Below are positions 9,610 to 20,738 of a DNA stretch of 45,008 nt, one piece after another. Position numbers and translations under genes: made by a program. The stretch is from positions 1-45,008 of the IMG/VR virus record IMGVR_UViG_3300038492_000072. One strand, given 5' to 3'. Source of the stretch: a virus. Taxonomy: Duplodnaviria; Caudoviricetes. A model generated the notes under the pieces. That model made no database searches. It was not told where the DNA came from and saw only the letters and a list, made by a program, of their open reading frames with translations. Every line of letters begins with the position of its first letter. Position 1 is the first letter of the stretch.

Positions 9610-10818
9610 ATGCCAGGACAACATAAAAGACTGAGCGCGTCGGGCGCCGAAAGATATATCGAGTGCAGTGCCTCCATCACCATGTTTGAGCGCCTGTTTC
9701 CAGACTATAACTCGGATGACGACGAGGAGGAATGGTCTGCCGAAGGGACTTGCGCACACGAGGGCGCGGCTAAATGTCTTATTGAAGGTCTGGACGGCTG
9801 GGAGGTCATCGGCGAGAAACTCTACAAAGACATTGAGTTTAACGACGAAATGTCCATTGGGGTGCAAGAGTACATTGACTATGTCCGGCAAATGTCCGAA
9901 GGCGCCAATCGAGACGTTGAAATCACCGTCGACAATATGAGCGTACACAAGGATTTTGGCGGGTCTACGGACTGCTGCATACACAATTTAGTGCGCAGCA
10001 AAGATGGCCTTCAAATGTCCGGCTTTGTCCACATTATTGATTTTAAGTATGGGGCTGGCATCGCCCGAGAGCCCGATGACCCACAGTTGAAGTATTATGC
10101 ATTCGGCGCAATCTTAAACCTCGCAACGCTCGGCGAACTTGACCCTGAAACTAACGTCGGGCTGACAATTGTGCAGCCACGCGCCTTCCACAAGGACGGC
10201 ACCATCCGAGAAAAATGGATGACAGTCAAAGAAATTGTCAGTTGGGCCGAAGAAACCCTAATCCCCGCCATGCACGCGGTCGACGGACCCAACCCAAACC
10301 TAAAAGCGGGTGAGTGGTGCCGGTTCTGCCCTGGTAAGATCGCCTGCCCGGCCCTGCATGGCGCGTTCAAAGCTATGATGAACGCAGACCCCCGTAAAGC
10401 TCAAACACTCACAAACGAGCAATTGGCCCTAGAGAAAGAGGCTTTCGAGGTTGTCAAGATGTACGGCAAAGCTCTGGACAAGGAGGTTTATGCACGTATA
10501 CAGAAGGGTCAGAAGGTGCCGGGATTTGCACTAGGCCCGAAAAGAGCCGACCGCGTGTTTAAAGACAAGCAAGAAATCAAAGGTAAGGAAATCAAGTTTA
10601 AAGATGCTGCGGCCAAGGCATTTGGGGATAAGGCGTTCCAAGATCGGAAATATCTGACACCCCCAAACATGGAGAAGCTACCTGGCGGTAGCAAGTTCGT
10701 GAAGCAGTGGGCCTATAAACCATACAATGGGGACACGGTGGTCAAAGATGATGGTTCGCGGCAAACCACCAAAGTTGAAACCCATGTTGAAGCATTTAAA
10801 GGAGTGAAAAAGGCATGA
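9610..10818 (+). CDS. DUF2800 / Cas4-like PD-(D/E)XK exonuclease
   Basis: HKRLSASGAERYIEC, EGTCAH, GSTD, IIDFKYG, QLKYYA, IVQPR, CRFCP...CP. Confidence 0.9.
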   Translation: MPGQHKRLSASGAERYIECSASITMFERLFPDYNSDDDEEEWSAEGTCAHEGAAKCLIEGLDGWEVIGEKLYKDIEFNDEMSIGVQEYIDYVRQMSEGANRDVEITVDNMSVHKDFGGSTDCCIHNLVRSKDGLQMSGFVHIIDFKYGAGIAREPDDPQLKYYAFGAILNLATLGELDPETNVGLTIVQPRAFHKDGTIREKWMTVKEIVSWAEETLIPAMHAVDGPNPNLKAGEWCRFCPGKIACPALHGAFKAMMNADPRKAQTLTNEQLALEKEAFEVVKMYGKALDKEVYARIQKGQKVPGFALGPKRADRVFKDKQEIKGKEIKFKDAAAKAFGDKAFQDRKYLTPPNMEKLPGGSKFVKQWAYKPYNGDTVVKDDGSRQTTKVETHVEAFKGVKKA

Positions 10819-14566: not shown

Positions 14567-16255
14567 ATGGCAACCCTGACACCAAAAAAGGCTGCATCAC
14601 TGATTAAGAAACACGGAGGTGTTAAAGCTGCCTCCCGTAACTCAGAATGGGGATACAACCAGTTGCAGCGCACTTATAAGAAGGCAGTTGCCGAAGGGAT
14701 CATGGAGCCAATCAACGTGGGTATCAAACCACGAGAGACATTGACTGGAAAGACACAAGCGCCAACTGCTCGTCGGGCAAACGCGGGCACAATTAAAGCG
14801 AAACGCATCATCAAAGAGAAGGTGCCTTCACGGGGCGAAGTGCGCCGATACATCCTGACATGCGCGCAGAACGACACCAAAGTGCACCCCGAGTTTTGGG
14901 ACAACCTCACTCTGTATGCGGACCACTTGGACGCAGAACTTATGGTAGCTCGCATCACCTATGACAAGAAGGGGTGGGACTTCCATGGTGGGCAGTCCAA
15001 GTCCGGCAACCGAACTAACCAGAAGAAAGGTGAAATGACTTGGGACCCCAAGGTTGAACCTTATCTCTGTGATAACCGAGTTGCTCTGGCCCCCGGTCTC
15101 GTTTGGGTGGGTGACATTGACATGAACCCGACGGCGGCAAACCCCCTCAGTGGGCTGACCACCTTCACCGGCCGGGCGACTGGCATTTTCCCCCACCCCC
15201 AAATCGCGCTGGAGAGTGTGTCGTCCCTGGGTGAAGACCCCACTAAATTTAACATGACGACCGGCACCGTCACCCTACGCAATTATATCTTGCGCAAGAC
15301 AGGGCAGATTGCCGACCACCATCACAACTATGCCGCCCTCATTGTTGAAGTCGATAGCGCGGGCAACTGGTATCCCCGCCACTTGGTTGCCGATAGCACG
15401 GGCTGCTTTTATGATTTAAACGTGCAGGTAAAGAACGGTGAGGTTACGGGCGGGCACCGGGTTGAACATATTTACTGGGCCGATGGCCATGACGTGGAGG
15501 CTGACCCCGAAATGGTGGAGTTGGCTTTCGGTGAAGGCGGGATCAAAGACGAACTCCGGCCGAAGAAAGAAAGTATCGGGGACATTATCAGCTTCAAGTC
15601 ACGGTCTCACCACGAAATGAAAAACCCCCACAAGATGTTTTTGCGCAAGGTGCAGGGGCTCGGCGATGTCCAAGAAGAATTGCTGAGTTCGGCACGGTTC
15701 ATTGCTAAGATGGTGAACCAGCGCGATTGGTGTAAGACATCATTGGTGTACGGAAATCACGAACAGCACATTGCTCGGTGGTTGCAAGAGCACAACGTAG
15801 CGCGAGACCCGACGAACGCCCTATTCGGATCACGGTTGCAGGCTTCGGTCTTCGATCACATACAGAAGCACGGCGAAGAACCCAACATCTTTCAACTGGC
15901 ACTCGACGTTGCCGGTGTGAAAATGCCGAAACATGTTCGTTTCCTGCTTGAAGACGAGAACGATATTGTTTGCGATGACGTGCAGGGCGGAATTGAAAAT
16001 GGTATGCACGGGCATCGCGGGCTGCGCGGCGCGAAAGCAACCATCAAGAGTTTGGGGAAACTGGGGCGCAAGGTGAACATCGGTGACAAGCACGGGTGTG
16101 GCATCTATCGTGGCGTTTACTGTGCAGGCACTTTCTCTTGGCAAGGATCAGACTGGACCCATGGCCCGAGTGATTGGTCTTGTTCTCACATTATCACCTA
16201 CCCGAACGGTAAGCGCACTCTGTTAATCTGCTGGAATGGAAAGGCATGGGCATGA
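14567..16255 (+). CDS. T5 A1-like protein (metallophosphoesterase-fold nuclease)
   Basis: Blocks recalled from T5 A1: RYILTCAQN, PTAANPLSG, TTGTVTLRNYI..KTGQ.A..HH, GNHE, HGH.G..G, SHIITYPNGKRTL. Confidence 0.8.
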   Translation: MATLTPKKAASLIKKHGGVKAASRNSEWGYNQLQRTYKKAVAEGIMEPINVGIKPRETLTGKTQAPTARRANAGTIKAKRIIKEKVPSRGEVRRYILTCAQNDTKVHPEFWDNLTLYADHLDAELMVARITYDKKGWDFHGGQSKSGNRTNQKKGEMTWDPKVEPYLCDNRVALAPGLVWVGDIDMNPTAANPLSGLTTFTGRATGIFPHPQIALESVSSLGEDPTKFNMTTGTVTLRNYILRKTGQIADHHHNYAALIVEVDSAGNWYPRHLVADSTGCFYDLNVQVKNGEVTGGHRVEHIYWADGHDVEADPEMVELAFGEGGIKDELRPKKESIGDIISFKSRSHHEMKNPHKMFLRKVQGLGDVQEELLSSARFIAKMVNQRDWCKTSLVYGNHEQHIARWLQEHNVARDPTNALFGSRLQASVFDHIQKHGEEPNIFQLALDVAGVKMPKHVRFLLEDENDIVCDDVQGGIENGMHGHRGLRGAKATIKSLGKLGRKVNIGDKHGCGIYRGVYCAGTFSWQGSDWTHGPSDWSCSHIITYPNGKRTLLICWNGKAWA

Positions 16256-16758
16256 TTGATATTAGTATGTTTGAACGCATGACGGATGCGGACCGCCATA
16301 AAGCAGTTCGCATCCTGGGTTCGGTACGAGAACCCGATTTCACTATCGCACCGGACGGGAGACCATATCTCTATCGCTGGCATGTAATACCACGGAACGA
16401 TTTTGCAAACGTGTATCTTCACATGCAGGTTGCTAGTGATCCCGAACGTCCGCTTCACGACCACCCGTGGGACAACCAAACAGTCGTCTTGTCTGGTGGA
16501 TATGCTGAACGTGTAGGACATTTTCATGGGGCTTATGCTTTCACACGACATCTTAGAGCGGGTGACGTGCAGGCCCGGAAAGCCGAAGAACCGCACCGCC
16601 TTGTTTTGCCGGATGATATTCCGTACACCCTCACATTGTTTACTACCGGTCCCAAGCGTCGTAAGTGGGGTTTCTGGTTCCCCGACGGCTGGCGGGAAAG
16701 TAGTAAAGTTATCATTGACCAACCCGACGGCACGTCGGTATTTAAAGGAGATGCCTAA
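16252..16758 (+). CDS. Cupin-fold protein
   Basis: PYLYRW, NVYLH, LHDHPW, GGYAE, HRL, TLFTTGP..R.WGF. Confidence 0.8.
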   Translation: MIDISMFERMTDADRHKAVRILGSVREPDFTIAPDGRPYLYRWHVIPRNDFANVYLHMQVASDPERPLHDHPWDNQTVVLSGGYAERVGHFHGAYAFTRHLRAGDVQARKAEEPHRLVLPDDIPYTLTLFTTGPKRRKWGFWFPDGWRESSKVIIDQPDGTSVFKGDA

Positions 16759-17153
16759 TGCAAGAATTAAAACCGCCCCCCATGCCAGGAGATGTTTTAG
16801 GACCGGCGCGGCCGGTTGAAGCAGACCCCAGCGGTAAGAAACCGTTTGAACCGGGGGCCAAGCTCGATGCTGGTAAGTCCCCTGTCAGGCGAGGGCTGTT
16901 AGAATATTTCCCCCGCGCCTGTATAGCCGTGGCGAACGTGTCGGCCTTTGGCGCGAGCAAGTATGCCTGGAATGGCTGGGAGACCGTTGATAATGGGGTT
17001 GATCGCTACGGGGATGCAGGTGCCCGACACATTTGTAAGGCCGCTATAGAAGGCCCTATGGACAGTGACAGTGACCTAGATCATGCAGCACATGAGGCAT
17101 GGAATGCACTGGCCCGGCTGGAATTGATCTTGCGCGAGCGGGAAAAGGTCTGA
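16758..17153 (+). CDS. dATP/dGTP diphosphohydrolase-like (DUF5664)
   Basis: GAKLDAGK, FGASKYAWNGW, RY.DA..RH, D.DS.L.H.AH.AWNAL. Confidence 0.85.
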   Translation: MQELKPPPMPGDVLGPARPVEADPSGKKPFEPGAKLDAGKSPVRRGLLEYFPRACIAVANVSAFGASKYAWNGWETVDNGVDRYGDAGARHICKAAIEGPMDSDSDLDHAAHEAWNALARLELILREREKV

Positions 17154-17429: not shown

Positions 17430-17874
17430 AGGTTACGACACCGTAACCAATGACCCCGACGACCCTGGTGGGTTAACCAAGTGGGGTATCAGCAAGCGAG
17501 CCCACCCCGAAGTTGATGTTGAAAACCTGACGCGCGAGGGGGCGGGACAAATCTACCACAGAGACTACTGGGAAATGGCAAGTTGCGACCGGCTGCCGTG
17601 GCCCCTCAACCTGTTCGTTTTCGACGCGGCGGTCAACCAGGGTGTCATCCCGGCTAAGAAAATGCTCCAGGCCGCTACAGGGCGCACAGCAGCCGACGGC
17701 ATATTCGGGCCGAAGACTATGGCCGCGATTGCCCACTGGCCCTCAGACGAACTAGCAGCACGCTTTATGGCTAAGCGAGCGCTCCGGTATGTGGGCACCC
17801 GCAACTTTGACAAGTATGGGTATGGCTGGCTCAAGCGCCTCGCCCTGGTAGCGATGCAGGCTCACGATGGTTAA
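17386..17874 (+). CDS. Endolysin, glycoside hydrolase family 108
   Basis: EGY...NDPDDPGGLTKWGIS, FDAAVNQG, DGIFGPKT, YGYGWLKR. Confidence 0.93.
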   Translation: MSEFKKALDLIFKLEGYDTVTNDPDDPGGLTKWGISKRAHPEVDVENLTREGAGQIYHRDYWEMASCDRLPWPLNLFVFDAAVNQGVIPAKKMLQAATGRTAADGIFGPKTMAAIAHWPSDELAARFMAKRALRYVGTRNFDKYGYGWLKRLALVAMQAHDG

Positions 17875-18148
17875 AAAAGATCAAATGCGCCGGACCACTT
17901 GGGAGGATTTCAAACGGTCCAAGTGGTATAACGAACCCAAGAGCAAAGACTATCACACGGTTGTGATGCCTATGCCGGATGACACACCCCTGCCCGGCAA
18001 ACATGTGGCTAAGACCATGATAGACCAGCTTGGACACTTGCCGCTGGCGGAAGCGCGCCTAAAGAATGCGCAGTTTGAAGTCGAAACATGCGACCAAACG
18101 AAAATAAAGGCGCTCGTCGGCCGCATTAAACGGTGGAAAGGAGAATAG
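17867..18148 (+). CDS. Hypothetical protein
   Basis: Overlaps the lysin stop and fills the operon. Confidence 0.6.
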   Translation: MVKKDQMRRTTWEDFKRSKWYNEPKSKDYHTVVMPMPDDTPLPGKHVAKTMIDQLGHLPLAEARLKNAQFEVETCDQTKIKALVGRIKRWKGE

Positions 18149-18150
18149 CG

Positions 18151-18363
18151 ATGACCGAATATCAAGTGACACATCTGACAGACGAACTCTCTGTAGGCGC
18201 GATGCAAAAAGCACTAGATATGTCAGGTCTAGCTATGAGGCGACATGGGGCTTCCCATGCTGAAATCAACTTAGCAACGGTTGTCATCCATAAAGATGAA
18301 ACCTTAAGACGGCGCCCATGGAACATTGTCATAACTGCCACCATACAAAACTTTATAGGTTAG
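18151..18363 (+). CDS. Hypothetical protein
   Basis: SD AAGGAG. Confidence 0.6.
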   Translation: MTEYQVTHLTDELSVGAMQKALDMSGLAMRRHGASHAEINLATVVIHKDETLRRRPWNIVITATIQNFIG

Positions 18364-18373
18364 GACCATAGAC

Positions 18374-18763
18374 ATGGACCCACTCACAGCAATTCTAAAC
18401 GTCGGCGGTAAGCTGATCGACCGGATCATCCCCGATGAAGCGGCGCGCGCTGCGGCCAAGGTAAAGCTGGTCGAAATGCACTTGGCCGGAGAGCTAGAGG
18501 TTATCCGAAATCAGGCGGGTATCATAACGGCTGAGGCAAGCGGCGAGAGTTGGCTGCAACGCAACTGGCGCCCTATCACCATGCTATCGTTCCTCGGCCT
18601 TCTGTGGGCTTACTGGCTGGGCCAGGCGCCCGATTATGTGGTTGAAAACCCGGACGTGGTTGCCCAAGTGTTTGACCTCTTGAAAATTGGTATCGGTGGG
18701 TATATAGTCGGCCGTTCCGTCGAGAAGACAGCGAAGACCTGGAAAGTGAACGGGGGCGCATAG
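18374..18763 (+). CDS. Holin (3TM, GTA-holin-like)
   Basis: GKLIDRIIPD...IITAEA.GESWLQRNWRP...GIGGYIVGRSVEK. Confidence 0.85.
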   Translation: MDPLTAILNVGGKLIDRIIPDEAARAAAKVKLVEMHLAGELEVIRNQAGIITAEASGESWLQRNWRPITMLSFLGLLWAYWLGQAPDYVVENPDVVAQVFDLLKIGIGGYIVGRSVEKTAKTWKVNGGA

Positions 18764-18836
18764 AAGGGCCTGCACCGGACCGATAAACCGGAGTGGCAAG
18801 CCAAACGCGGGGTGCAAATCCTCGTCGCCTCCACCA
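18752..18836 (+). ncRNA. tRNA-like RNA 1 (G3-U70 acceptor, long variable arm, non-canonical)
   Basis: Acceptor GGGGGCG/CGCCTCC-A-CCA; T-arm CGGGG-TGCAAAT-CCTCG; CCGG/CCGG arm with GAT in the loop; GGC-AA-GCC arm. Confidence 0.65.
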
Positions 18837-18837
18837 T

Positions 18838-18906
18838 GAGGGGTTCATCTAATAAAGACTTGGTGGTTACACCAGAATGCAGGTGCAAATCCTGCACCCC
18901 TCACCA
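18838..18906 (+). ncRNA. tRNA-like RNA 2 (no canonical anticodon loop)
   Basis: Acceptor GAGGGGT/ACCCCTC-A-CCA; T-arm GCAGG-TGCAAAT-CCTGC; anticodon arm TGGTG-GTTA-CACCA. Confidence 0.7.
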
Positions 18907-18907
18907 C

Positions 18908-19915
18908 CTACACCCCATTAAGGCGCTCGCAAAACGCTTCGGTTTGCTCCCACCATTCCGACATTTCACCGTAGTCGGTGCTCCATGTGGTGTCAAAGGA
19001 TATGGTCCAGATAATTAAGCCGTCCGCGTACCGATTAGCCATTTCTAACACTAGCGCCCATTCATCCCGAGTGACCAACCGGTACTGACCAGCGCCGATA
19101 GGAACCCTGGTTGATGCGTACATGTACACCGGCTTCTGATAAATGCGGGCCTCTTGTAAAGAGTATTCCATGAACCGACGATTGAGAGCTACCGAAAACC
19201 CATTGACTATATAGCCGCAAGCAGGAGCCACAAAATCTAACTCATTGACTAAAGACTGTAGGGCTAAGTTCCGTGTACGTAAATTATAGGCCCCATCATT
19301 GACGTAAGCATCATGAACTGGTCCACGATTGTAGTAGCCAAGTTCTACACCGTGGTTTTGGACATACGACCGAATGTCTTTAATGGCGTCGATATATTTT
19401 TGTGTTTCCGTCTCTAGGTCCCAACTCTCAATGTCAACTACAAACGGCCGGTCAGTTGTCGGGGGGTCCGCAGTTAAAGAGGCCAGGGCTTTGGTTGAAT
19501 TGTAAGTACTACTTGGAGTATTCGGATTATCACAAAACCGGTCTTCATACATGATCTTCAACGGCCTAAATCCGAACACGGATAAGTCAGGCTTGTCTTG
19601 AATTTGTATGTTGTCAAACAGTTTTAATTTGTGCATTTTCGTAGGTGGGCTTGCCCGGTGTGCAGCCAAAGCCGGTATTTCACTATAGGCTTTAGTCGCG
19701 CCGGTAAACGAGTGTGTAACACCGTCGACCTCTATCACTTCCCCGTTGGCGAGTATTTCCCGAACATAGCCAACACAATGTACTAGGTCGTTTGCACACC
19801 GGGCGGGAACTGCCCACCCACCAGTGTCAACCTCCATCGGCTGCAACCCATGGCCAGGGGAAGTGACGCCACGGATGAAATTTGCTTCGGTTTCGGTTAT
19901 ACGTATGACAAGCAT
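18908..19915 (-). CDS. Putative virion-associated glycoside hydrolase/depolymerase (TIM-barrel-like)
   Basis: TAATG-coupled start. VVDIESW, LGYY, LDFVAP, KPVY and ADGLIIW patterns resemble GH56/hyaluronidase-like barrels. Last gene of the late operon. Confidence 0.5.
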   Translation of the reverse strand: MLVIRITETEANFIRGVTSPGHGLQPMEVDTGGWAVPARCANDLVHCVGYVREILANGEVIEVDGVTHSFTGATKAYSEIPALAAHRASPPTKMHKLKLFDNIQIQDKPDLSVFGFRPLKIMYEDRFCDNPNTPSSTYNSTKALASLTADPPTTDRPFVVDIESWDLETETQKYIDAIKDIRSYVQNHGVELGYYNRGPVHDAYVNDGAYNLRTRNLALQSLVNELDFVAPACGYIVNGFSVALNRRFMEYSLQEARIYQKPVYMYASTRVPIGAGQYRLVTRDEWALVLEMANRYADGLIIWTISFDTTWSTDYGEMSEWWEQTEAFCERLNGV

Positions 19916-20738
19916 TATTGTGCCCCCATCCCAGTCAAGTAAGCAAGTGCGATTGCATTTAGTTGGCCGTGTTCGGCTTCGGTCAGCGTTTCTCCTACCC
20001 AAGCGAATGCCACTCGGCCGGACGAATAGAGCGATGATGTGCGCAGTAAAACAACTGTCCCTGTTGGCAAACTGCTCCAGTCGGCAACCTGACTTGGGGT
20101 TAAAGCCTGACCGTCCTGATAACCAGTTGGAATATTCTCTGATCCGTCAACGCTAAACGACCGGGCTCCCAATTGGGTTGCAGTATTCAGTTCACAGATT
20201 GTTTGGTCAACAGTACCACCCAACCAATAGGTTGCCCGATCTGGTGAGGTAAACTGATACGGGAGTATTGTTGCTGCCACGATGTTATGGATACCAATAG
20301 ACGGGTCCGCCACTTGAGTTGTCGGAGTGTCGTGATCGTTTATGTAAGCGTACATGGACAAATTAGTTGTTGATATGCCTGCTAAACTTCCCAGTGTGGT
20401 TCCACTGTCTAAGTGGGCAGACACGTCATCGCCTTTGAACCCTCGATCAGTCGTGAATGTGGGAGAGTTTACAGCCGTTAAGGTGTTGCTGCCAGGGGTT
20501 TTCCAGTTCAAACGTCCTGCTTGCTCATCATGAGCCGCACACCCATAAATCAACCGGCCCTTGTCCCAAATACCAGCCGTCACTAAGCCGTCGATTGCCG
20601 TGTTGTACAAATCCTGTCGGCTAGAATTTGGCTGCACAGACATCGCCGCGAACAGCGTTTCTGATTGTTCTAGCACACCAAACCCGGCCAAGTTGACCAA
20701 ATTTGCAGGACCATTTATTAGATTAGATTAGATGTCAT
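19915..20738 (-). pseudogene. Tail/virion accessory protein, out of frame within (CTAAT)3
   Basis: SD GAGGG plus ATG20738 reads MTSNLI-stop. With two repeat units it reads MTSNLINGPANLVNLAGFG... into ORF 20700..19915. Confidence 0.65.

What the first reader, a model, noticed from the sequence alone, without database searches (positions are those of the whole stretch)
18752..18906. Tandem non-canonical tRNA-like RNAs after the lysis cassette
Seen: the gap between the convergent holin and late operons holds two cloverleaf-like units separated by 1 nt. Both have 7-bp acceptor stems, discriminator A, encoded CCA and the same atypical T-loop TGCAAAT. Unit 1 has a G3-U70 pair (the established AlaRS determinant, also used by tmRNA) but a GAT-containing loop with C at position 33 and a long variable arm. 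Unit 2 has only a 4-6 nt loop where the anticodon should be. Intact acceptor/T halves with aberrant decoding arms suggest selection for tRNA shape rather than decoding. Inferred roles include decoys for tRNA-targeting defence nucleases or toxins, a tmRNA tRNA-like-domain mimic, or RNase P/Z processing signals.
Basis: partly seen in the sequence, partly recalled or inferred. Interest (0 to 1): 0.72.

Follow-up and report, generated by a model that had tools for sequence, protein, structure and literature searches.

The report
Paired non-decoding tRNA mimics in phage
An uncultured phage carries, right behind its lysis gene, two back-to-back DNA units that keep the amino-acid-carrying half of a transfer RNA but lack a normal codon-reading arm; they are predicted to be made as small RNAs that likely act as decoys for host toxins that attack tRNA ends.

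Summary
Both units are real: a strict acceptor/T-arm/CCA detector finds exactly these two in the window and 0 in 300 simulated genomes; ARAGORN (default) and Rfam miss them. (1) The TGCAAAT T-loop is no sign of non-decoding: it marks many ordinary phage tRNAs, covarying with a GG-to-AG D-loop change. (2) Unit 1 (85 nt, G3-U70) is predicted to fold not as a cloverleaf but like the tRNA-like end of tmRNA, and appears to have lost the SmpB-contacting D-loop segment. (3) It overlaps the holin stop codon, so RNase P maturation would leave a non-stop holin mRNA. Unit 2 (69 nt) looks like a Glu-type tRNA with a 4-nt loop for an anticodon; one homolog with compensated stems lies in a distant podovirus. 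The closest syntenic relative has an empty site, not canonical tRNAs. Best guess: tRNA-end decoys (0.38); expression, charging and targets are untested. Nearest known: tag-less tmRNA of phage DS6A. This scan has noted tag-less phage mini-tmRNAs on other DNA several times, once in tandem with a non-alanine mimic. New variant of a known kind; interest 0.5.

The parts
18752..18836 (+). Unit 1, 85 nt: alanine-type acceptor RNA, likely a tag-less tmRNA derivative with a shortened D-loop
18752..18758 (+). Unit 1 acceptor 5' strand (pairs with 18826-18832; G1-C72, G2-C71, G3-U70, G4-C69); discriminator A 18833, CCA 18834-18836
   Evidence: pair probabilities 0.95-1.0
18759..18766 (+). Unit 1 stemless 8-nt D segment, starts with C not U8; CATAG as in two-piece phage tmRNAs; holds the holin stop codon (18761-18763)
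18767..18802 (+). Unit 1 predicted single bulged stem (tmRNA P2-like) capped by a 9-nt loop 18779-18787 that holds GAT at 18782-18784
   Evidence: MFE fold; 0.55-0.91 with the T-arm enforced, 0.24-0.39 unconstrained
18807..18825 (+). Unit 1 T-arm, 6 bp, loop TGCAAAT 18813-18819; competes with an alternative pairing to 18771-18776
   Evidence: T-stem probability about 0.3 unconstrained
18837..18837 (+). 1-nt spacer, as in tandem canonical phage tRNAs of the same T-loop class (L029, L361)
18838..18906 (+). Unit 2, 69 nt: anticodon-less cloverleaf of Glu-tRNA type (acceptor 18838-18844/18896-18902, D-arm 18847-18859 with 5-nt loop, 6-bp stem 18860-18875 with 4-nt loop 18866-18869, T-arm 18879-18895, A 18903, CCA 18904-18906)
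18680..18708 (+). Sigma-70-like promoter match (10 of 12, 17-nt spacer) inside the holin gene, about 43 nt before unit 1; function not shown
   Evidence: one of 6 such sites on both strands of the window
18374..18763 (+). Holin (GTA_holin_3TM); its last 12 nt overlap unit 1, and the predicted RNase P cut (18751/18752) falls on a codon boundary before the stop
18908..20002 (-). Convergent 364-aa ORF of the virion-gene strand; its stop ends 1 nt after the CCA of unit 2

Best explanation
The 155 bases hold two tRNA-shaped units with intact acceptor stems, T-arms and CCA ends but no normal anticodon arm; they are likely transcribed together, predicted to be cut apart by host RNase P, and likely serve as decoys that soak up host defence toxins which bind or modify tRNA acceptor ends. 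Shown by sequence: the stems, the CCA ends, the alanine marks of unit 1, the 4-nt loop of unit 2, the overlap with the holin stop. Inferred from comparison: unit 1 descends from the tRNA-like domain of a phage tmRNA and has lost the SmpB-contacting part of the D-loop; unit 2 descends from a Glu-type tRNA of the phage A18/G55 class. Inferred without test: transcription (from the holin mRNA or the internal promoter match), processing, alanylation of unit 1, poor charging of unit 2, and the decoy role itself. Losing the anticodon would keep them out of decoding and out of reach of anticodon nucleases; two different acceptor stems would cover two toxin specificities.
For: Reality: (2 hits vs 0 in 300 simulations). 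Top half kept, decoding half lost: (U33 in 103 of 121 and a 31-39 pair in 116 of 121 canonical G55 tRNAs, neither in unit 1; 4-nt loop in unit 2). Unit 2 homolog L058 in G041, a podovirus with the same capsid family: same A10-C25 mismatch and U13-A22, 4-nt loop of other letters, anticodon-position stem fully paired with other letters. Unit 1 ancestry: no U8 (U8 in 112 of 121 tRNAs, in 1 of 12 tag-less tmRNAs), CATAG at 8-12 in 6 of 22 two-piece phage tmRNA loci and 0 of 121 tRNAs, alignment with a 6-nt gap over the TTTCGA segment; that segment holds the SmpB contacts A15, U17, C18, G19 (PMC8363625 passages). Two more D-shortened alanine acceptors: L150 and G023. Accessory cargo: empty site in G001. 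Such toxins exist, act in phage defence, read the first five acceptor pairs plus CCA, and accept minihelices (10.1101/2024.07.05.602228 passages).
Against: No result here bears directly on a decoy role; no host or host defence system is known. Unit 2 has one homolog only, unit 1 none close; the tandem pair was not found elsewhere (3 metagenome matches, none of this kind). The tmRNA ancestry is statistically modest (shuffle p 0.035; 5 of 121 tRNAs score as high; the same test does not recognise DS6A, L150 or G023), and CATAG doubles as holin codons. Unit 1 scores 24.1 bits on the mini-tmRNA model, no better than ordinary G55 tRNAs (25.5, 24.2, 29.8). Unit 1 is not a stable folder: 1111 of 2000 sampled structures break its T-arm. 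Unit 2 lacks G19 and L058 has an acceptor mismatch, which fits decay as well.
Confidence: 0.38

Rival explanations
1. The units work in cis as RNase P handles. Cutting before unit 1 would remove the holin stop codon, giving a non-stop mRNA whose product would be tagged by host tmRNA and degraded, which would delay or tune lysis; the pair would also end the two convergent transcripts.
For: The predicted cut lies on a codon boundary 3 codons before the holin stop. Distant holins end 7-8 residues after the EK motif in 66 of 79 matches; this one has 11, and 8 would end at the cut. In 7 of 9 mini-tmRNA family members the RNA lies in the same frame inside a small conserved ORF. A non-stop mRNA made by RNase cleavage is how arfA is regulated (PMC8012679 passage). 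No intrinsic terminator on the + strand.
Against: Overlaps are common in compact phage genomes and the frame is 1 in 3 by chance; the 7 are one related family. DS6A, L145, L153, L161, L150, G023 and L058 show no such overlap. It does not explain unit 2 or the alanine marks. G001 ends the same convergent genes with no RNA at all.
Confidence: 0.2
2. Unit 1 is a working tag-less tmRNA like that of DS6A: it binds SmpB (and is alanylated) and so blocks or bypasses host trans-translation; unit 2 is a helper or a second, non-alanine copy.
For: Alanine acceptor, no U8, no D-stem, one inner stem, 85 nt against 83 nt for DS6A. A DS6A-like molecule is reported to inhibit tmRNA, perhaps by titrating SmpB (PMC4131195 passage). 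True tag-less tmRNAs occur in this phage group (G042). Unit 2 scores 40.5 bits on the mini-tmRNA model.
Against: The D-loop segment that contacts SmpB is absent. No RF00023 or RF02544 match at E up to 10, whereas DS6A scores 43.2 bits and L143 47.5; L153 and L161 also missed RF00023, so this test is not strict. Unit 2's score comes from size and T-arm; it lacks G3-U70 and its 5' part matches tRNA better than tmRNA (15 vs 6).
Confidence: 0.15
3. Both units are decaying cargo: a broken tmRNA fragment and a tRNA with an anticodon deletion, carried in with a variable tail-gene block and without function.
For: Absent from the closest relative and from 12 of 13 near-complete capsid relatives; unit 1 folds no better than shuffles; unit 2 lacks G19; no close homolog of unit 1.
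Against: All 13 top-half pairs of unit 1 and all 21 pairs of unit 2 are intact, both CCA ends and both T-loops are exact, the pair fills the interval to the base, a promoter match sits upstream, and L058 shares the derived features of unit 2 with different stem letters.
Confidence: 0.15
4. Unit 1 is an adaptor that mistranslates: charged with alanine, it would read AUC isoleucine codons through its GAT loop, like the G3-U70 allo-tRNAs.
For: The 7-nt core of the loop matches an Ile(GAT) loop but for C33, with A37-A38; relaxed ARAGORN calls it tRNA-Ile. L150 and G023 also carry alanine acceptors with 9-nt loops whose centres read TTG and CCT. G3-U70 allo-tRNAs insert alanine in E. coli (PMC5389517).
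Against: C33, a 31-39 mismatch, no U8, no D-stem and a 13-bp 7/6 branch; allo-tRNAs are 8/4 or 9/3 with a long D-stem. AUC is the phage's own main Ile codon (192 of 371 in 12 long ORFs), so misreading it would harm the phage.
Confidence: 0.07
5. The units are non-ribosomal amino-acid donors (Ala, Glu) for a transferase that modifies wall, lipid, protein or DNA.
For: Alanine identity lies wholly in the acceptor stem (established knowledge; PMC5389517 passage on G3:U70). From my own recall, not from a call: staphylococcal non-proteinogenic tRNA-Gly has a UGC T-loop.
Against: No aminoacyl-tRNA-dependent transferase among 44 ORFs scanned with PHROGs or 28 with Pfam; the UGC loop is common in ordinary phage tRNAs; GluRS reads the anticodon (own knowledge), which unit 2 lacks.
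Confidence: 0.05

Closest known systems
Tag-less ('TLD only') tmRNA of mycobacteriophage DS6A (PMC4131195, PMC11915505; passages read) and the phage mini-tmRNA family seen here (L143, L145, L148 and others)
   Same: Unit 1: G3-U70 and A73 acceptor, no U8, no D-stem, one inner stem, no tag frame, 85 vs 83 nt, just behind or inside a gene end.
   Different: Lacks the UUCGA/CGAC D-loop segment that contacts SmpB; 6-bp T-stem; no RF00023 match; followed by a second, non-alanine mimic.
Canonical phage and island tRNAs of the A18/G55 class, above all tRNA-Glu(TTC) L089 and L101
   Same: Unit 2: G1-C72, A2-U71, A73, U8, U11-A24, C12-G23, near-identical T-arm; 1-nt spacer between tandem genes.
   Different: 4-nt loop instead of the 7-nt anticodon loop, A10-C25 mismatch, 5-nt D-loop without G19; no Rfam tRNA match.
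Allo-tRNAs and polycistrons of irregular tRNAs (PMC5389517, parts 2-3 of 5 read)
   Same: Irregular tRNA shapes in tandem; G3-U70 with a non-alanine anticodon; some are charged but not used in translation.
   Different: Allo-tRNAs have 8/4 or 9/3 branches, a long D-stem with tetraloop and a long variable arm; here 7/6 and 7/5, and unit 2 has no anticodon.
tRNA-Pyl (PMC7609411 passages)
   Same: Unit 2 has a 5-nt D-loop without GG, an elongated 6-bp anticodon-position stem and a 3-nt variable region.
   Different: No CUA anticodon loop, two nucleotides between acceptor and D-stem, T-loop keeps U54 and C56, no PylRS gene among the scanned ORFs.

Membership tests
canonical tRNA | 7-bp acceptor stem, discriminator and CCA | tested here: met
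   both units
canonical tRNA | 5-bp anticodon stem with 7-nt loop and U33 | tested here: not met
   unit 1: 4 bp, 31-39 mismatch, C33; unit 2: 4-nt loop
canonical tRNA | U8 and a D-arm with G18-G19 (or A18-G19 in the G55 class) | tested here: not met
   unit 1 has C8 and D-stem probability 0.00; unit 2 has U8 and a D-stem but no G19
canonical tRNA | passes ARAGORN default or Rfam RF00005 | tested here: not met
   canonical G55 tRNAs pass at 40-67 bits; relaxed ARAGORN (-ps90) calls unit 1 Ile, with 3 other calls in the window
tag-less (TLD-only) tmRNA, unit 1 | alanine marks G3-U70, A73, CCA | tested here: met
tag-less (TLD-only) tmRNA, unit 1 | no D-stem, one inner stem in place of anticodon arm, no tag frame | tested here: inconclusive
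   favoured when the T-arm is enforced (0.55-0.91); unconstrained ensemble is mixed; prediction only
tag-less (TLD-only) tmRNA, unit 1 | 12-13-nt D-loop ending in the SmpB-contacting segment (A15, U17, C18, G19) | tested here: not met
   8-nt segment, 6-nt gap over that part (PMC8363625)
tag-less (TLD-only) tmRNA, unit 1 | scores on tmRNA models | tested here: not met
   no RF00023 or RF02544 match; 24.1 bits on model R1 vs 48-50 for L153 and L161
tag-less (TLD-only) tmRNA, unit 1 | alanylation and SmpB binding | not testable with these tools
   needs bench work
allo-tRNA | 12-bp acceptor branch of 8/4 or 9/3 type with long D-stem and tetraloop | tested here: not met
   7/6 in unit 1, 7/5 in unit 2 (definition)
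allo-tRNA | G3-U70 with a non-alanine anticodon triplet | tested here: met
   unit 1, in sequence only
bacterial Y RNA (YrlA type) | Rfam Y RNA match and a neighbouring Ro60 gene | tested here: not met
   no Rfam match; no Ro60-like hit among the ORFs scanned
RNA decoy of tRNA-end toxins | binds or is modified by the toxin and protects translation or phage growth | not testable with these tools
   needs bench work; host unknown

The most novel reading that the evidence does not exclude
A tmRNA-derived, SmpB-blind alanine acceptor is wired into the end of the holin gene so that RNase P, in releasing two tRNA mimics, turns the holin message into a non-stop mRNA: lysis timing is then coupled to host tRNA processing and trans-translation, while the released RNAs act as decoys. 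The in-frame mini-tmRNAs of marine phages would be a second case of the same switch, and anticodon-less A18/G55 mimics a widespread unannotated phage RNA class.
Probability: 0.12. Interest if true: 0.85.

Novelty: new variant of a known kind. Interest (0 to 1): 0.5.

Why it matters
Phage tRNAs are known to replace host tRNAs cut by defence systems. RNAs that keep only the acceptor half would be a different counter-measure, an RNA sink for toxins that attack tRNA ends, and standard annotation misses them (ARAGORN and Rfam both do here). The pair is small (155 bp) and can be tested directly in laboratory E. coli. The overlap with the holin stop gives a second testable idea: lysis control through non-stop mRNA. 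The side result, a G18-U55 to A18-G55 swap across many mobile-element tRNAs, was not found in two full-text searches.

Tried and rejected
Rfam (whole window at gathering, region at E up to 10; RF00005, RF00023, RF02544 singly): no relevant match. BLAST of the region against phage and plasmid records: only 20-47-nt pieces or nothing; the Caulobacter hits are the T-arm of a two-piece tmRNA, the Bacillus phage hit a long Leu-like element, the Pseudomonas hit lies in repeat-like DNA. Relatives by A1-like protein (18 loci) and holin (80 loci): 0 of 98 loci pass the strict detector; DNA polymerase found no relative. Capsid relatives: model R1 found nothing in 80 loci and, in 40 stretches of 15 genomes, only the two elements already known (G041, G042) and one new one (G023); G023 39001-45218 was covered only by the pattern search; ARAGORN found 1 tRNA in those 40 stretches, which I did not identify. 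Tandem pattern in metagenomes: 3 matches, two canonical pairs and one duplication. Unit-2 pattern: 1 true homolog among 18 viral loci and none among 13 genome loci (part of the output was cut). The last viral scan used a wrong gap length that could not match unit 1 itself, so its zero says nothing. Expression: no RNA holder listed. Rejected: integrase attachment site (both units are whole; no integrase hit among the scanned ORFs); cross-pairing of the two units as a two-piece tmRNA (unit 1's acceptor 3' strand does not pair with unit 2's 5' strand, and the joint fold keeps them separate); the - strand terminator match over unit 2 (1 found, 1.8 expected); the UGC T-loop as a mark of non-decoding. 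PMC11662646 and PMC10690425 (passages) did not bear on the case. Supplements of PMC5389517 and PMC10690425 were not opened and may list similar RNAs.

Full report
Setting. The window is one whole virus record (G000, 45,008 bases). PHROGs and Pfam show a podovirus-like phage: replication genes, an A1-like protein, a GH108 endolysin and a GTA-type holin on the + strand, virion genes on the - strand. The capsid is 38-44% identical to those of HTVC010P-type pelagiphages and Ralstonia phages. The host is unknown.

Observation. A detector that asks for a fully paired T-stem, a T[T/G]CRANY loop, 7 of 7 acceptor pairs and NCCA finds exactly these two in the window and 0 in 300 order-3 Markov simulations. 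ARAGORN at default and Rfam find nothing; relaxed ARAGORN calls unit 1 tRNA-Ile along with 3 other calls. Contigs of two DNA runs of one study, flagged as the possible source, agree letter for letter, so the 4-nt loop is unlikely to be an assembly slip, though this is not independent support. The pair fills the interval exactly: unit 1 begins 12 nt inside the holin and the convergent 364-aa ORF stops 1 nt after unit 2.

The T-loop is a class mark. The pattern of this T-loop plus ACCA has about 1100 matches in IMG/VR (estimate from 7 of 64 parts). Of the 121 loci returned, ARAGORN tRNA and 17 tmRNA, 41 have a T-arm but no call, and 21 have no T-arm. Among 231 distinct ARAGORN tRNAs in my loci (19 not parsed), those with U55 have GG in the D-loop in 84 of 85, those with G55 have YAG and no GG in 101 of 127 (14 GG, 12 other). 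The G55 set was enriched by my own pattern and many members come from related Opitutia arrays, so these are not independent events. G55 tRNAs with normal anticodon arms pass Rfam tRNA at 40-67 bits (25 matches in 11 loci). So G55 goes with A18 in place of the usual G18-U55 pair (the usual pair: PMC7609411 passage) and says nothing about decoding. Two full-text searches found no paper on this swap.

Unit 2. It folds as a clean cloverleaf (z -3.89, 0 of 200 shuffles as good) with a 4-nt loop where the anticodon belongs. Its first two acceptor pairs, discriminator, D-stem and T-arm line up with G55 tRNA-Glu (L089, L101), and positions 8-19 match tRNA far better than tmRNA (15 vs 6). One homolog turned up, L058, between the terminase genes of G041, a complete phage with the same capsid family (E 1e-41). 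Both share two changes from the Glu type (A10-C25 mismatch, U13-A22) and a 4-nt loop; the loop letters differ, and the stem beneath is fully paired with different letters. This favours selection for an anticodon-less shape, but n is 2, unit 2 has lost G19, and L058 has one acceptor mismatch.

Unit 1. The acceptor carries the full alanine set (G1-C72, G2-C71, G3-U70, G4-C69, A73). The cloverleaf with a variable arm is 5.2 kcal/mol worse than a fold with one bulged stem; with the T-arm enforced the D-stem and variable arm have probability 0.00 and the single stem 0.55-0.91; unconstrained, 1111 of 2000 sampled structures break the T-arm, and the RNA folds no better than shuffles. It lacks U8, which 112 of 121 canonical G55 tRNAs have and 11 of 12 tag-less tmRNAs lack. 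Positions 8-12 read CATAG, as in 6 of 22 two-piece phage tmRNA loci and 0 of 121 tRNAs, and positions 8-19 align to such a tmRNA with one 6-nt gap. The gap covers the nucleotides that contact SmpB in cryo-EM structures (PMC8363625 passages). The support is modest: shuffle p 0.035, 5 of 121 tRNAs score as high, the test fails on DS6A itself, and the same letters encode the holin end. A model (R1) built from 9 phage mini-tmRNAs, whose inner stem covaries in 7 of 8 pairs, gives unit 1 24.1 bits, like ordinary G55 tRNAs, against 48-50 for two divergent true members and 40.5 for unit 2. DS6A's RNA scores 43.2 bits and L143 47.5 on RF00023; unit 1 has no match. I read unit 1 as likely tmRNA-derived but outside the family as defined. 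Two other alanine acceptors with a short D segment and a 9-nt loop were seen: L150, itself in tandem with an odd tRNA, and one in capsid relative G023; their kinship to unit 1 is not established.

Relatives. The closest syntenic phage, G001 (capsid 61%, same gene order), has its holin abutting the homolog of the 264-aa gene with no spacer; the two units and two extra ORFs are an addition in this genome, not decayed tRNAs of a conserved site. Of 13 near-complete capsid relatives, 1 (G023) has a comparable element (one stretch of G023 was covered by pattern only). G041 and G042, picked by their RNAs, also belong to this capsid family. So such RNAs are scattered accessory cargo of this phage group.

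Expression, inferred. A sigma-70-like match (10 of 12) lies about 43 nt upstream inside the holin; the window holds 6 such sites on both strands. The 1-nt spacer recurs between canonical G55 tRNAs (L029, L361). By established tRNA biology RNase P would cut before each unit and exonucleases would trim to the encoded CCA. The first cut falls on a codon boundary three codons before the holin stop, so a processed holin mRNA would be non-stop. Distant holins end 7-8 residues after the EK motif in 66 of 79 matches, this one after 11. In 7 of 9 mini-tmRNAs of the marine family the RNA lies in the same frame inside a small conserved ORF; 7 other elements show no overlap. arfA is regulated by cleavage to a non-stop mRNA (PMC8012679 passage).

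Mechanism. What is kept in both units is the acceptor stem, T-arm and CCA; what is lost is decoding and, in unit 1, SmpB binding. That surface is the one read by RNase P, AlaRS, EF-Tu and by toxins that modify tRNA ends. toxSAS toxins act in phage defence, read the first five acceptor pairs plus CCA and accept minihelices (10.1101/2024.07.05.602228 passages; CapRel paper PMC9712102 seen in the search listing only). I commit to a decoy role at 0.38, a cis RNase P role at 0.20, DS6A-like SmpB titration at 0.15, decay at 0.15, mistranslation at 0.07 and amino-acid donation at 0.05. That the units are maintained non-decoding RNA elements of some function I put near 0.8. No step beyond sequence, predicted fold and comparison is shown.

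Known kinds. The DS6A 'TLD only' RNA is described in PMC4131195 (passages), which says a similar molecule inhibits tmRNA, citing Mao et al. 2009 (not read); PMC11915505 (passages) words this as shown for the DS6A form. Allo-tRNAs and irregular tRNA polycistrons are in PMC5389517 (parts 2-3 of 5 read). Searches listed no paper on anticodon-less phage cloverleaves or on RNA decoys of tRNA-end toxins; the library lacks most subscription journals, and I recall without a call that T4 and T5 encode stable tRNA-like RNAs of unknown function. Earlier notes of this scan report tag-less phage mini-tmRNAs many times, one that lost the SmpB site and one in tandem with a non-alanine mimic; they are leads, not support, but one gave the DS6A coordinates that I checked and one shaped my reading of unit 1.

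Verdict. Real, missed by standard tools, a new variant of a known kind (tag-less tmRNA and irregular phage tRNAs), with thin family support and no functional data. Interest 0.5.

Noticed in passing
L143:995-1064, L148, L154, L157, L158, L163, L165 (also L145, L156): A family of 69-70-nt tag-less mini-tmRNAs with a covarying 8-bp inner stem; in 7 of 9 the RNA lies in frame inside a small conserved ORF starting M(N/S)GKGD, so RNase P cleavage would leave a non-stop mRNA, as for arfA.
   Followed up: partly
L363, L364, L368, L372, L374 (Opitutia contigs), L179 and many viral loci: Whole tRNA arrays in which G18 is replaced by A and U55 by G; 101 of 127 G55 tRNAs vs 1 of 85 U55 tRNAs have the AG D-loop. 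Not found in two literature searches.
   Followed up: partly
window 17583-19576: Contigs of both holder runs break with loose ends near 17583/17961 and 19500-19576, which hints at a co-occurring variant with another lysis-to-tail block; no contig of such a variant aligned to the two units at 80%.
   Followed up: partly
L150:2391-2571 (-): Tandem of a 71-nt alanine acceptor with a TTG-centred loop and a 101-nt tRNA with a Leu-type body but a Pro anticodon, among lysis-like genes.
   Followed up: partly
L392:10440-10510 (G023): 71-nt G3-U70 acceptor with an unusual T-loop, before an unknown 287-aa ORF and an IS1595-type transposase.
   Followed up: partly
L030, L099, L100 (73 nt); L081 (68 nt): Other anticodon-less tRNA shapes: an 8/4 cloverleaf with a GAAA loop at the anticodon position, and a D-armless form.
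   Followed up: no
L060, L095, L117, L126, L142:1894-2028: Long (115-135 nt) Leu-like elements with a 6-bp T-stem as in unit 1; the one in Bacillus phage BUCT082 is unannotated and shares unit 1's T-arm exactly; L060, L095 and L117 gave no Rfam match.
   Followed up: no
L144:2501-2586, L159:391-476: 86-nt G3-U70 elements with an 8-bp acceptor and a long arm, allo-tRNA-like, not called by ARAGORN.
   Followed up: no
L005 near 10430-10500, L016 near 1960-2050: Odd tRNA-like elements downstream of A1-like genes, without a normal anticodon arm and with no Rfam match.
   Followed up: no
L140:2449-2790 (Caulobacter phage CcrBL10): An unannotated two-piece tmRNA gene in the GenBank record.
   Followed up: no
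window 18908-20002 (-): The 364-aa ORF has a predicted fold like glycoside hydrolase barrels (TM 0.62 to a GH56 cluster), a possible tail depolymerase; absent from G001.
   Followed up: partly
window 14567-17153: A1-like protein, a cysteine-dioxygenase-like protein and a dATP/dGTP diphosphohydrolase stand together between RusA and the lysis genes.
   Followed up: no
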